The notes beneath the pieces are model-generated. The model searched no databases. It was not told where the DNA came from and saw nothing but the letters and a program-made list of their open reading frames with translations. From the NCBI RefSeq assembly GCF_009914755.1, contig NC_060934.1: a DNA stretch of 64,000 nucleotides. One strand, 5' to 3'. The position numbers were made by a program, and so were the translations under genes. The stretch comes from the human T2T-CHM13v2.0 reference genome, Homo sapiens. This document shows positions 6,046 through 22,478 of this stretch, piece after piece; position 1 is the stretch's first letter, and each line of letters begins with the position of its first letter.

Positions 6046-7079
6046 GAGGGAGGAGCCAAGATGGCCGAATAGGAACAGCTCTGGTCTACAGCTCCCAGCG
6101 TGAGTGACGTAGAAGATGGGTGATTTCTGCATTTCCAACTGAGGTACTGGGTTCATCTCACTGGGGAGTGCCAGACAGTAGGTGCAGGACAGTGGGTGCA
6201 GTGCACCGTGAGTGAGCAGAAGCAGGGCGAGACATCACCTCACCTGGAAAGTGCAAGGGGTCAGGGAATTCCCTTTCCTAGTCAAAGAAAGGGGTGACAG
6301 ACGGCATCTGGAAAATCTGGTCACTCCCACCCTAATACTGCGCTTTCCCAATGGGCTTAAAAAATGGCACACCAGGAGATTATATTCTGCACTTGGCTTG
6401 GAGGGTCCTATGCCCACAGAGTCTCACTCACTGCTAGCACAGCAGTCTGAGATCAAACTGCAAGGCGGCAGCAAGGCTGGGGGATGGGCACCTACCATTG
6501 CCCAGTTAGTTGTTTGATTAGTTAACAAAGCAGCTGGGAAGCTCCAACTGGGTGGAGCCCACCACAGCTCAAGGAGGCCTGCCTGCCTCTGTAGGCTCCA
6601 CCTCTGGGGGCAGGGCACAGACAAACAAAAAGACAGCAGTAACCTCTGCAGACTTAAATGTCCCTCTCTGACAGCTTTGAAGAGAGTAGTGGTTCTCCCA
6701 GCACACAGCTTGAGATTTAAGAATGGGCAGACTGCCTCCTCAAGTGGGTCCCTCACCCCTGAGTAGCCTAACTGGGAGGCACCCCACAGTAGGGGCAGAC
6801 TGACACCTCACACGGCTGGGTACTCCTCTGAGACAAAACTTCCAGAGGAACGATCAGACAGCAGCATTTGCAGTTCACCAATATCCGCTGTTCTGTAGCC
6901 ACCACTGCTGATACCCAGGCAAAAAGGGTCTGGAGTGGACCTCTAGCAAACTCCAACAGACCTGCAGCTGAGGGTCCTGTCTGTTAGAAGGAAAACTAAT
7001 AAACAGAAAGGACAGCCACACCAAAAACCCATCTGTACGTCACTATCATCAAAGACCAAAGGTAGACAAAACCACAAAG
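6046..7079 (+). promoter_or_regulatory. L1 5'UTR internal promoter: YY1 motif at 6057-6066, retained ~129-bp ZNF93-target segment at ~6824-6951
   Basis: caagatggcc motif; the segment between two actcc repeats (6822 and 6950) is the one absent from L1PA2/L1HS (established knowledge). Confidence 0.7.
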
Positions 7080-14365: not shown

Positions 14366-14563
14366 CACATCAGAGAACTTCTTTTTAATTGTTGACCCCG
14401 GAGAAAATTGCAGTTCTCTCTTTCAGCTTCCTGCCATACCTGAGCATCCGTAAGTCAGCTAAATTGAACTCTATGATTAATGAAACATTGGCATTTAACT
14501 CCATCAGAGGTCCTGCTTAGTTGCACAGGTGTCTGTCTCCTCTGTAAAGACTGTTTGCATTCA

Positions 14564-14869
14564 GGCCAGGGGTGGTGGCTCACCCCTGTAATACCAGCAC
14601 TTTGGGAGGCCGAAGCAGACGGATCACAAGGACAGGAGATCGAGACCATTCTGGCTAACACAGTGAAACCCTGTCTGTACTAAAAAATACAAAAAATTAG
14701 TCGGGCATCCTGGCAGGCGCCTGTAGTCCCAGTTACTCCGGAGGCTGAGGCAGGAGAATGGCATGAACCCGGGAGTTGGAGCTTGCGGTGAGCGGAGATC
14801 GTACCACTGCCCTTCAGCCTGGGGTCCAGAGGGAAACCCCATCTCAAAAAAAAAAAAAAAAAAAAAAAA
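14564..14869 (+). mobile_element. AluY-like SINE, unusually diverged
   Basis: Y diagnostics (gagatcgagaccat..ggctaacac, agaatggcatgaacccgg, ggagcttgc); long A tail; degenerate TSD aaagactgtttgcattca vs aaagactgctggctttca. Confidence 0.9.
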
Positions 14870-15152
14870 GACTGCTGGCTTTCAGAGAAAACTTGATTCC
14901 TCATAGCTCATTCTTTTTTTAAATTTTTTTAAATTTTTAAATTTTTTATTATACTTTAAGTTCTAGGGTACATGTGCACAATGGGCAGGTTTGTTACATA
15001 TGTATACATGTGCCATGTTGGTGTGCTGCACCCATTAACTCGTCATTTAGCATTAGGTATATCTCCTAATGCTATCCCTCCAACCTCCCCCAACCCCACT
15101 GCAGGCCCCAGTGTGTGATGTTCCCCTTCCTGTGTCCAGGTGTTCTCACTGT

Positions 15153-19276
<4,124 letters not shown>

Positions 19277-19339
19277 TATGATCTTAGCTGGTTATTTTGC
19301 TCGTTAGTTGATGCAGTTTCTTCCTAGCATCGATGGTCT

Positions 19340-20356
19340 TTACAACTTGGCATGTTTTTGCAGTGGCTGGTACTGATTTTTCCTTTCCATGTTTAGTGCT
19401 TCCTTCAGGAGCTCTTTTAGGGAAGGCCTGATGGTGACAAAATCTCTCAGCATTTGCTTGACTGTAAAGGATTTTATTTCTCCTTCATGTAGGAAGTTTA
19501 GTTTGGCTGGACATGAAATTCTGGGTTGAAAATTCTTTTCTTTAAGAATGTTGAATATTGGTCTCCACTCTCTTCTGGCTTGTAGAGTTTCTGCCGAGAG
19601 ATCCCCTGTTAGTCTGATGGGCTTCCCTTTGTGGGTAACCCAACCTTTCTCTCTGGCTGCTCTTAACATTTTTGCCTTCATTTCAACTTTGGTGAATCTG
19701 ACAATTATGTGTCTTGGAGTTGCTCTTCTTGAGGAGTATCTTTGTGGCATTCTCTGTATTTCCTGAATTTGAACGTTGGCCTGCCTTGCTAGATTGGGGA
19801 AGTTCTCCTGGATAATACCCTGCAGAGTGTTTTCCAACTTGGTTCTAGTCTCCCCATCACTTTCATGTACACCAATCAAATGTAGATTTGGTCTTTTCCC
19901 ATAGTCCCATATTTGTTGGAGGCTTTGTTCGTTTCTTTTTACTCTTTTTTTCTCTAAACTTCTCTTCTCACTTCATTTCATTCATTTGATCTTCAATCAC
20001 TGATGCCCTTTCTTCCAGTTGATCGAATTGGCTACTGAAGGTTGTGCATTCATCATGTGGTTCTCATGCCACAGTTTTCAGCTCCATCAGGTCATTTAAG
20101 GACTTCTCTACACTGGTTATTCTAGTTAGCCGTTTGTCTATTCTTTTTTCAAGGTTTTAGCTTCTTTACGATGAGTTCAAACTTCCTCCTTTAGCTCAGA
20201 GAAGTTTGATAGTCTGAAGCCTTCTTCTCTCAACTCATCAAAGTCATTCTCCGTCCAGCTTCATTTCATTGCTGGTAAGGAGCTGCGTTCCTTTGGAGGA
20301 AGAGAGGCGCTCTGAGTTTTAGAATTTTCAGCTATTCTGCTCTGTTTTTCCCCCAT
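19340..20356 (-). pseudogene. L1-B ORF1 remnant
   Basis: MGEKQSR... start at 20356; ORF 19340-19879 ENFPNLARQ...TPRHIIVRF...QPLQKHAKL. Confidence 0.92.
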
Positions 20357-21164
20357 CTTTGTGGTTTTATCTAACTTTGGTCTTTGATGATGGTGACATA
20401 CAGATGGGGTTTTGGTGTGGATGTCCTTTGTGTTTGTTTTCCTTCTAACAGTCAAGACCCTCACCTGCAGGTCTGTTGGAGTTTGCTGGAGGTCCACTCT
20501 GACCCTGTTTGCCTGGTTATCAGCAGCGGAGGCTGCAGAAGAGCGAATATTGCTGAACAGCAAATGTTGCTGCCTGATTGTTCCTCTGGAAGCTTCATCT
20601 CAGAGGGGTACCCAGCTGTGTGAGGTGTCAGTCTGCCCCTACTGGGGGGTGCCTCCCAGTAAGGCTACTCGGTGGTCAGGGACCCTCTTGAGAAGGCATC
20701 CTGTCTGTTCTCAGATCTCAAACTCCGTGCTGGGAGAACCACTACTCTTTTCAAAGGTGTCAGACAGTGACATTTAAGTCTGCAGAGGTTTCTGCTGCCT
20801 TTTGTTTGGCTATGCCCTGCCCCCAGAGGTGGAGCCTACAGAGGCAGGCAGGCCTCCTTGAGCTGTGGTGGGCTCCACCGAGTTTGAGCTTCCCGGCTGC
20901 TTTGTTTACCTACTCAAGCCTCAGCAATTGCAGGCGCCCCACCCCAGCCTCACTGCCGCCTTGCAGTTCAATCTCAGACTGCTGTGCAAGCAATGAGCGA
21001 GGCTCCATGTGTGTGGGATCCTCCGAGCCAGGCAAAGGATATAATCTCCTGGTGTGCTGTTTGCTCAGTTGGAAATGCAGAAATCACCCATCTTCTGCAT
21101 CGCTCATGCTGGGAGCTGTAGACTGCAGCTCTTCCTATTCAGCCATCTTGGAACCACCCCAACC

Positions 21165-22478
21165 ACCATCTGATCTTTGACAAACCCGACAAAAACAATA
21201 AATGGAGAAAAGATCTCCTATTCAGTAAGTGGTGCTGAGAAAACTTGCTAGCTATATTCAGAAAACTGAAACTGGACCCCTTCCTTACACCTCATACCAA
21301 AATTAACTCAAGATGGATTAAAGACTTAAATGTAAAATCCAAAAATCATAAAAACCCTGGAAGAAAACCTAGGCAATACTATTCAGGACATAAGCATCGG
21401 CAAAGGCTTCATGATGAAAACACCAAAAACAATGGCAACAAAAGCCAAAATTGACAAATGGGATCTAATTAAACTAAAGAGCTTCTGCACAGCAAAGGAA
21501 ACTGTCATCAGAGTGAAGAGGCAACCTGCAGAATGGGAGAAAATTTTTGCAATCTACCTGTCTGGCAAAGGCCTAATATCCAAAATCTACAAGGAACTTA
21601 AATAAATTTACCAGGAAAAAATCAAACAACCCCATCAAAAAGTGGGCAAAGGATATGAACAGACACTTCTCAAAAGACTTTTATGCAGCCAACAAACGTA
21701 TGTAAAAAACCTCAACATCACTGTTCATTAAAGAAATTCAAATCAAAACCACAATGAGATACCATCTCACACCAGTCAGAAAGGTGATTAGTAAAAAGTC
21801 AAAAAGCAATAGATGCTGGCGAGGCTGTGGAGAAACAGGAACACTTTTACATGGTTGGTGAAAATGTAAATTAGTTCAACCCTTGTGGAAGACAGTGTCG
21901 TGATTTCTCAAGGATCTAGAACCAGAAATACCATTTGACCCCGCAATCCCATTACTGGGTATATACCCAAAGGATTATAAATCATTCTACTATAAAGACA
22001 CATGCACATGTATGTTTATTGCAGCACTATTTACAACAGGAAAGACATGGAACCAATCCAAACGTCCATCAATGATAGACTGGAAAAAGAAACTGTGGTA
22101 CAAATACACCATGGAATACTATGTAGCCATAAAAAGAATGAGATTATGTCCTTTGCAGGGACGTGGATGAAACTGAAAGCCACCATCCTCAGCAAACTAA
22201 CACAGGAACAGAAAACCAAACACTGTATGCTGTCACTCAAGTGGGAGTTGAACAATAAGAACACATGAACACAGGGAGGGGAACAACACACACTGGGGCC
22301 AGTCTGGGAGTGGGGGGCGAGAGGAGGGAGAGCATTAGGATGAATACCTAATGCACATGAAACTTAAAACTTAGATGACGGGTTGAGAGGTGCAGCAAAC
22401 CAACATGACATACGTATACCTGTGTGAGAAATCTACATATTCTGCACTTGTATCCCAGAACTTAAAGTTAAAAAAAAA
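21165..22478 (+). mobile_element. L1PA8-like host element, right piece (ORF2 3' end, 3'UTR, A-tail)
   Basis: Resumes accatctgatctttgacaaacc; 3'UTR aatacctaatgca...cttaaaacttagatgacgggttg...tatcccagaacttaaag is PA8-like. Confidence 0.9.

What the first reader, a model, noticed from the sequence alone, without database searches (positions are those of the whole stretch)
21040..21090. L1-B looks like a spliced retrocopy (SpIRE) using a proximal 5'UTR acceptor: a 217-nt intron is removed exactly
Seen: the minus strand reads CATTTCCAACTGAG|CAAACAGCACACCAGG, with the junction between 21064 and 21063. The unspliced L1-A reads CCAACTGAG|GTACTG (6144) ... GGGCTTAA|AAAATGGCACACC (6360/6361). So 217 nt are missing, beginning exactly at a GT. 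The missing piece contains a branch-point-like CTAAT (6332-6336) about 25 nt before the far junction, followed by a pyrimidine-rich run. Established: GAG|GT near +97 is the known L1 splice donor. The SpIRE classes I recall use acceptors at about 622, 790 and 976, not about +315. Inference: the older subfamily had TTAG|CAAAC here. I recall this from consensus; it cannot be seen because it left with the intron. The younger L1-A has AA at that position, which suggests the acceptor was later lost from the lineage. The splice removes much of the internal promoter, so this copy was probably crippled on arrival.
Basis: partly seen in the sequence, partly recalled or inferred. Interest (0 to 1): 0.85.

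Follow-up and report, generated by a model that had tools for sequence, protein, structure and literature searches.

The report
Spliced L1 retrocopy, unlisted proximal acceptor
This old LINE-1 copy was made from an L1 RNA that had lost a 217-base intron from its leader, and 22 other copies in the same genome share the joint, which makes a class of spliced L1 insertions absent from the published lists I could read.

Summary
L1-B (minus strand, 14914-21160) joins ...CCAACTGAG (21064) directly to CAAACAGC... (21063). L1-A carries 217 extra bases there (6144-6360), starting with GT.

Of 20 unspliced relatives fetched from the same genome, 19 have AG directly before CAAAC and 19 have GT after CTGAG. 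The intron is 217 nt in 13 of them.

The joint recurs at 23 loci with different flanks. At least 7 have clear, different target-site duplications.

The spliced copies lie scattered among unspliced ones in three supported subfamily clades. An AU test rejects a single spliced lineage (p = 1.5e-71). This points to recurrent splicing followed by retrotransposition, that is, a SpIRE class.

Larson et al. 2018 list acceptors at 622, 790, 853 and 976 only, and their sequence supplement lacks this joint. I could not read Belancio 2006 or 2008.

Younger L1s, L1-A included, read TTAA instead of TTAG, and no such retrocopy of theirs was found.

L1-B itself shows no target-site duplication. Promoter loss is inferred, not tested. 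I rate it a new variant of a known kind, of moderate interest.

The parts
14914..21160 (-). L1-B, a 5'-complete L1 retrocopy lacking the 217-nt leader intron (a SpIRE). It holds a later Alu insertion.
   Evidence: it starts GGGGTGGTTCCAAGATGG at about 21160 and ends in an A-rich tail at 14914. Without the Alu its length is like that of the other spliced copies.
21064..21160 (-). Exon 1: the first 97 nt of the L1 5'UTR, ending ...CCAACTGAG at the known +97 donor.
   Evidence: Donor G98U99 is described in Larson 2018.
21063..21064 (-). The splice junction GAG|CAAAC.
   Evidence: The same joint is found at 22 other loci.
14914..14950 (-). A-rich 3' tail of L1-B.
6144..6360 (+). The 217-nt intron-equivalent kept in unspliced L1-A. 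It begins GT and ends AA, not AG.
6332..6336 (+). Branch-point-like CTAAT in L1-A, followed by a pyrimidine-rich run. It is conserved as CCCTAATAC in 16 of the 20 unspliced relatives shown.
6359..6360 (+). The position of the lost acceptor. L1-A reads AA where older copies read AG.

Best explanation

A full-length L1 of an older L1PA subfamily was transcribed from its own start site. The spliceosome removed a 217-nt GT...AG intron from the 5'UTR. The donor was the known GAG|GT at +97. The acceptor was TTAG|CAAAC at about +315, with a CTAAT branch site 25-26 nt upstream, a pyrimidine run, and no other AG in between. The L1 machinery then reverse-transcribed and integrated the spliced RNA.

The same splice happened many times, in RNAs of several successive subfamilies, and left at least 23 copies in this genome. 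A G-to-A change (TTAG to TTAA) later removed the acceptor from the L1 lineage, and the class ends there.

Shown here: the junction, GT and AG in unspliced relatives, recurrence at independent loci, and scatter over subfamily clades.

Inferred: the splicing itself (no RNA was seen), and that the copies were poor promoters on arrival.
For: Junction and 217-nt gap.

Unspliced relatives: 19 of 20 have GT at the donor, 19 of 20 have AG at the acceptor, and the intron is 217 nt in 13 of 20 (191-204 nt in the other 7).

Recurrence: 8 exact matches to the 22-mer, and 21 loci within 3 mismatches of a 35-mer, against 0 for the reversed control. Two more came from a 24-mer search, giving 23 verified. 22 of the 23 start at the L1 5' end.

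Independent insertion: all 5' flanks differ. Of 17 copies whose two ends could be located, 7 have exact TSDs of 10-18 nt, all different (L053, L056, L062, L063, L064, L065, L069). One more (L055) has a split match.

Not one lineage: on 861 columns downstream of the joint, 22 spliced and 21 unspliced rows need 16 changes of label (shuffled mean 14.6). Starred branches force at least 6 changes. The AU test of one spliced clade gives p = 1.5e-71.

Exon 1 type tracks the exon 2 clade. GAGCC is found in 6 of 6 typeable copies of the youngest clade. GTTCC is found in 14 of the 16 other copies; the remaining 2 were untypeable.

Joints fall only at AG sites. When any 0-30 nt were allowed between CTGAG and GAGAYTATATYC, 14 of 15 exact hits used this acceptor. 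The fifteenth used another AG, TTTTCAG|ACCGG, which is present in 5 of 5 young unspliced copies.

No spliced copy of the TTAA type was found. All 12 exact hits are of the CAAAY, GCACACC type.
Against: - L1-B itself has no recognisable TSD. Its 5' end abuts an inverted older L1 3' fragment, so for this one copy the integration hallmarks are incomplete.
- No RNA evidence of this splice was seen.
- Orthologous loci in other primates could not be examined, so a post-insertion deletion in this single copy is excluded only by analogy with the 22 others.
- Two small spliced-only groups have moderate support (L054+L058 at 90/86; L063+L059+L028 at 78/81). A few copies could therefore be daughters of a spliced copy.
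- The unspliced sample was the first 10 listed chr1 and first 10 listed chr2 exact matches to a 27-mer that includes GCAAAC. Only the base before that G was free to vary, and the sample leans towards less-mutated copies.
Confidence: 0.88

Rival explanations
1. One L1 sub-lineage acquired the 217-nt loss once, by splicing or by deletion. It stayed active and produced all the copies, as the 129-bp ZNF93-site deletion lineage did.
For: 23 copies share one exact joint. Two small spliced-only groups have moderate support.
Against: The AU test rejects one clade (p = 1.5e-71). Starred branches force at least 6 changes of label. The label is no more clustered than when shuffled (16 changes against a mean of 14.6). 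The exon 1 type changes along with the exon 2 clade.
Confidence: 0.04
2. L1-B arrived unspliced and later lost the 217 nt by a genomic deletion between the two AG dinucleotides (GAG/TAG microhomology).
For: The joint is ambiguous by 2 nt (AG on both sides). L1-B has no TSD and sits in a rearranged setting. Orthologues were not available.
Against: The same joint is found at 22 other independent loci. All 15 joints found near it fall exactly at GT...AG sites. A 2-nt homology cannot direct a recurrent deletion.
Confidence: 0.03
3. The loss arose during reverse transcription, by the L1 reverse transcriptase jumping on the template at a short homology or RNA structure, without the spliceosome.
For: Internal deletions in L1 insertions are known in general (from my own knowledge; not checked here).
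Against: The ends coincide with a GT and an AG. A branch-like site and a pyrimidine run sit in the expected place, and the acceptor is the first AG after the branch site. The donor is the one used by all published SpIRE classes. No spliced copy was found for subfamilies that lack the AG.
Confidence: 0.03

Closest known systems
SpIRE97/622 (Larson et al. 2018, PMC5860796)
   Same: It uses the same donor (G98U99) and is an intra-5'UTR splice. ORF1 and ORF2 are kept. Copies are scattered over several L1PA subfamilies, and they make up about 1-2% of 5'-complete copies. Larson reports 116 of 6,609. Here, 7 of the 630 copies matching one 27-mer are spliced.
   Different: The acceptor is about 307 nt further upstream, so the intron is 217 nt rather than about 524. 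The part of the 5'UTR downstream of about +315 is kept. This class has 23 copies in this genome. Larson found only 1 SpIRE97/622 in L1PA6 and most in L1PA3, whereas the copies of this class all carry the older TTAG-type acceptor.
SpIRE97/853 (Larson et al. 2018)
   Same: It is a SpIRE class confined to older subfamilies, because its acceptor was later removed from the L1 lineage.
   Different: There the acceptor went with the 129-bp ZNF93-site deletion. Here it went by a single base change, TTAG to TTAA. That class has 9 copies, this one 23.
SpIRE97/790 and SpIRE97/976 (Belancio 2006 and 2008, as cited by Larson 2018)
   Same: The same donor, and retrotransposed spliced L1 RNA.
   Different: Distal acceptors. 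97/976 cuts into ORF1 and needs ORF1p supplied in trans. They have 4 and 11 copies.
129-bp 5'UTR deletion of L1PA3 to L1PA2 (ZNF93 evasion), as described in Larson 2018 and Fernandes 2020
   Same: An internal loss in the L1 5'UTR shared by many copies.
   Different: That loss is inherited along one successful lineage. The 217-nt loss here is polyphyletic and shows no sign of having founded a lineage.

Membership tests
SpIRE (spliced integrated retrotransposed element, as in Larson 2018) | An L1 copy lacks an internal piece whose ends are GT and AG in unspliced relatives. | tested here: met
   the piece is 217 nt, with GT in 19 of 20 and AG in 19 of 20 unspliced relatives.
SpIRE (spliced integrated retrotransposed element, as in Larson 2018) | Use of the 5'UTR donor G98U99. 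| tested here: met
   Exon 1 is 97 nt and ends CTGAG. The donor is described.
SpIRE (spliced integrated retrotransposed element, as in Larson 2018) | Hallmarks of target-primed reverse transcription: a poly(A) tail and a target-site duplication. | tested here: inconclusive
   For the class: 7 of 17 copies have exact, different TSDs of 10-18 nt, plus A-rich tails. For L1-B: an A-rich tail is present but no TSD was found. Larson's own list also holds SpIREs marked 'No TSD Present'.
SpIRE (spliced integrated retrotransposed element, as in Larson 2018) | The same joint at several independent genomic loci. | tested here: met
   23 loci with different flanks.
SpIRE (spliced integrated retrotransposed element, as in Larson 2018) | The spliced RNA isoform is detectable, and the spliced 5'UTR has reduced promoter activity. 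| not testable with these tools
   This needs RT-PCR and reporter assays.
Published SpIRE classes 97/622, 97/790, 97/853 and 97/976 | Acceptor at A620G621, A788G789, A851G852 or A974G975. | tested here: not met
   The acceptor here lies about 217 nt after the donor (about +315). The junction words CTGAGCAAAC and CTGAGCAAAT are absent from Larson's supplementary files, apart from one unrelated ORF2 flank.

The most novel reading that the evidence does not exclude
The proximal acceptor is a fifth, unreported SpIRE class, second in copy number only to 97/622, and it competed with the distal acceptors.

While TTAG|CAAAC existed, the +97 donor paired mainly with it. Once a single G-to-A change removed it, the donor paired with A620G621. 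That would explain why Larson found SpIRE97/622 to be rare in L1PA6 (1 copy) and to peak in L1PA3 (53 copies).

A new AG 10 nt upstream (TTTTCAG|ACCGG) in the youngest L1s has already given at least one spliced copy (G000:C10:9488642-9488698). The site may therefore be in use again in modern L1s.
Probability: 0.3. Interest if true: 0.6.

Novelty: new variant of a known kind. Interest (0 to 1): 0.5.

Why it matters
SpIREs are the fossil record of L1 RNA splicing, and they show how the L1 leader trades promoter function against splice sites.

- **A further class.** With 23 copies in this genome, it outnumbers three of the four published classes (4, 9 and 11 copies in GRCh38).
- **Older subfamilies.** It extends the record to subfamilies where the main published class is nearly absent.
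- **A natural experiment.** A one-base loss of the AG coincides with the end of the class.
- **Annotation.** About 1% of 'full-length' older L1PA copies carry a 217-nt leader gap that is a splice. It is not a lineage deletion or an evasion of a repressor, which matters for coverage-drop analyses of L1 5'UTRs.

It does not change how L1 biology is understood.

Tried and rejected
- **Loose junction search.** Of 31 hits, 8 were fetched and found false: two are unspliced L1s with a variant acceptor region, and six are not L1.
- **TSD of L1-B.** The 19 nt after its tail occur nowhere else in the window. No shared word of 8 nt or more links the two flanks.
- **5' transduction or twin priming.** The sequence upstream of L1-B is an inverted, older L1 3' end with its own A tail. 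Its outer flank does not match L1-B's 3' flank, so I rejected both ideas for this copy.
- **Acceptor one base downstream, or a GG-type acceptor.** No hits.
- **Use of the next AG (CCAG|GAG).** No hits.
- **Naming subfamilies.** No Dfam or RepeatMasker library is on hand. I give only rough ages. Non-CpG pairwise distances among 18 intact spliced copies are 0.048-0.116. With a rate recalled from Khan 2006 (about 0.17% per million years), this suggests roughly 15-30 million years.
- **Papers not held.** Belancio 2006 and 2008.

Full report
**What is in the sequence**

On the minus strand, L1-B starts at about 21160 with a normal L1 5' end (GGGGTGGTTCCAAGATGG). It runs 97 nt to ...CATTTCCAACTGAG, with that G at 21064. 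It then continues at 21063 with CAAACAGCACACCAGGAGATTATATCC.

L1-A, on the plus strand from about 6044, has the same two stretches separated by 217 nt (6144-6360). This piece begins GTACTG and ends GGGCTTAA.

L1-B runs to an A-rich tail that ends at 14914. It is 5'-complete and carries a later Alu insertion at about 15788-16102.

**Is there a GT...AG intron in the older subfamily?**

The whole genome holding the window (T2T-CHM13, handle G000) can be searched by pattern.

The word GCAAACRGCACACCAGGAGATTATATC has 630 exact matches. I fetched the first 10 listed on contig 1 and the first 10 listed on contig 2. All 20 are unspliced 5'UTRs.
- 19 have AG directly before CAAAC (18 TTAG, 1 TCAG, 1 TTCG).
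- 19 have GT directly after the donor word.
- The distance between donor and acceptor is 217 nt in 13 of them and 191-204 nt in the other 7, which belong mostly to an older clade.
- Upstream of the AG they read ...CCCTAATACTGCGCTTTTCCAATGGTCTTAG. This gives a yUnAy-like branch site 25-26 nt before the exon, a pyrimidine-rich stretch, and no other AG between branch site and acceptor.

The sample was chosen with the G of the AG fixed, so only the A before it was free to vary. The donor, the intron length and the branch region were all free.

**Is the joint recurrent?**

- The 22-nt junction word has 8 exact matches, against 0 for the reversed control.
- A 35-nt word with up to 3 mismatches has 21 matches, against 0 for the control.
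- A 24-nt word with up to 3 mismatches has 31 matches, against 1 for the control.
- I checked 8 of the weaker hits and all were false: two unspliced L1s with a variant acceptor region and six non-L1 places.

This leaves 23 verified loci on 14 chromosomes, the window's copy included. 22 of the 23 begin at the L1 5' end and one is truncated inside exon 1.

All 5' flanks differ. The two ends could be located in 17 of the 21 copies fetched at full length. Of those 17, 7 have exact target-site duplications of 10-18 nt, all different, and an eighth has a split match.

No two copies are close. Non-CpG pairwise distances among the 18 intact copies are 0.048-0.116, so none is a recent duplicate.

**One lineage or many splicing events?**

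I aligned the 880 nt downstream of the joint from the 23 spliced copies, the 20 unspliced copies and L1-A. I built maximum-likelihood trees on the 861 columns kept. One rearranged row, SP_L052, was left out of the careful tree.

The spliced copies sit in three places:
- an older clade supported 100/99, with 7 spliced and 5 unspliced rows;
- a younger clade supported 99/91, with 7 spliced and 10 unspliced rows, L1-A among them;
- a poorly resolved middle group that holds L1-B.

The spliced label needs 16 changes on the tree, no fewer than shuffled labels need (mean 14.6). Starred branches alone force at least 6 changes. The AU test rejects the best tree with all spliced copies together (log-likelihood 228 lower, p = 1.5e-71).

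Exon 1 tells the same story. The six typeable spliced copies of the younger clade start ...GGAGCCAAG. 14 of the 16 others start ...GGTTCCAAG and 2 were untypeable. Unspliced copies of the matching clades show the same pattern. Each spliced copy therefore has an exon 1 and an exon 2 of one subfamily, and the class draws on several subfamilies.

Two small spliced-only groups have moderate support (90/86 and 78/81). A few copies could be daughters of a spliced copy, but there is no sign of a lineage.

**The acceptor's later history**

The pattern CTTANNAAAYRGCRCACCA has 4209 matches. In the first 100 listed, the two free bases were:

| NN | Count |
|---|---|
| GC | 40 |
| AA | 41 |
| AG | 6 |
| GG | 5 |
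| AC | 4 |
| GA | 3 |
| CC | 1 |

GC is the TTAG|C form. The AA form, TTAAAAAAY, is mostly linked to GCGCACC.

A search allowing one or no base between CTGAG and AAAYRGCRCACC found 12 exact hits, all of the older C-AAAY, GCACACC type.

A search allowing any 0-30 nt between CTGAG and GAGAYTATATYC found 15 exact hits. Of these, 14 use this acceptor. The fifteenth is a very young-looking L1 at G000:C10:9488642-9488698, which joins CTGAG to ACCGGCTTAAGAAAC. In 5 of 5 young unspliced copies fetched, that point follows TTTTCAG, 205-206 nt after the donor GT. This is a second AG acceptor, 10 nt upstream, that exists only in the youngest L1s. That joint is unique in this genome, even when 3 mismatches are allowed.

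Every joint found in this region therefore falls directly after an AG.

**Frequency**

Of the 630 copies that match the 27-mer exactly, 7 are spliced, which is 1.1%. This is of the order Larson gives for SpIRE97/622, 1.8% of full-length L1PA1-6.

**What is in print**

I read these sections of Larson et al. [quoted passage not shown]

- They searched with 100-nt probes for chosen junctions.
- They report four acceptors (A620G621, A788G789, A851G852, A974G975), all used with donor G98U99.
- The class sizes are 116, 4, 9 and 11 copies.
- Their supplementary files hold neither CTGAGCAAAC nor CTGAGCAAAT at a junction, and they do not hold the young-type joint. Long sequence runs in that file were cut, but the 5' ends are shown.
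- A full-text search for the junction word and for 'SpIRE97' found no other relevant paper.
- Passages found by term in Fernandes 2020, Belancio 2010 and a 2025 preprint mention no such acceptor.
- Belancio 2006 and 2008, which first listed spliced L1 copies, are not held.

The claim that the class is unreported therefore rests on Larson's summary of those two papers and on the searches named above.

**How it most likely works**

An older L1PA element was transcribed from its own promoter. The +97 donor paired with the first AG after a good branch site 217 nt downstream. The spliced RNA still encoded ORF1p and ORF2p, which copied it back into the genome in cis. Larson showed this route for intra-5'UTR spliced RNAs.

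The copy lacks +98 to +314 of the leader, including part of the RUNX3 site that overlaps the donor. Larson measured a fall from about 267-fold to about 7-fold over background for the larger 97/622 loss. The effect of this smaller loss has not been measured. The absence of a spliced lineage fits low activity but does not prove it.

**Weak points for this copy**

L1-B has no recognisable TSD. Its 5' end abuts an inverted, older L1 3' fragment (window about 21161-22478, plus strand) that has its own A tail. This could be an insertion with target-site loss or a later rearrangement. Larson's list also contains SpIREs without TSDs. Primate orthologues could not be checked.

**Verdict**

It is a new acceptor class of a known phenomenon, of moderate interest.

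Noticed in passing
G000:C10:9488642-9488698 (locus L078), about 35.5 Mb upstream of the window on the same chromosome: A young-looking L1, with CpGs largely intact and CCATCTGAG-type exon 1, joins the +97 donor to ACCGGCTTAAGAAAC. In 5 of 5 young unspliced copies that point follows TTTTCAG, 205-206 nt after the donor GT. This looks like a single SpIRE made with a second proximal acceptor. It is unique in this genome and absent from Larson's supplement.
   Followed up: partly
window 21161-22478 (+): An older L1 3' fragment (end of ORF2 plus 3'UTR, with an A tail at about 22470-22478) lies head-to-head against L1-B's 5' end. Its expected continuation is not found beyond L1-B's tail. L1-B therefore has no TSD, and some target sequence may have been lost.
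   Followed up: partly
window 15788-16102 (-): An Alu of about 300 nt, in the same orientation as L1-B, is inserted in L1-B's ORF2 region. It is flanked by an A-rich direct repeat. It is private to this copy among the 21 spliced copies aligned.
   Followed up: partly
window 14561-14878: An Alu in the opposite orientation, with a long T run on the minus strand, lies about 35 nt beyond L1-B's tail.
   Followed up: no
G000:C4:55656900-55657350 (L070) and G000:C4:112641790-112642240 (L074): Two unspliced older L1 leaders have an acceptor region shortened or altered to ...TTTTCCAAGGGAG|CAAAT and ...TCTCCAACGTAG|CAAAT. These mimic the junction word in loose searches.
   Followed up: no
genome-wide: Besides TTAGC and TTAAA, minor forms of the acceptor region exist in the first 100 matches listed: TTAGG (5), TTAAC (4) and TTAGA (3). 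Some are linked to the younger GCGCACC marker. They may be intermediates in the loss of the acceptor.
   Followed up: no
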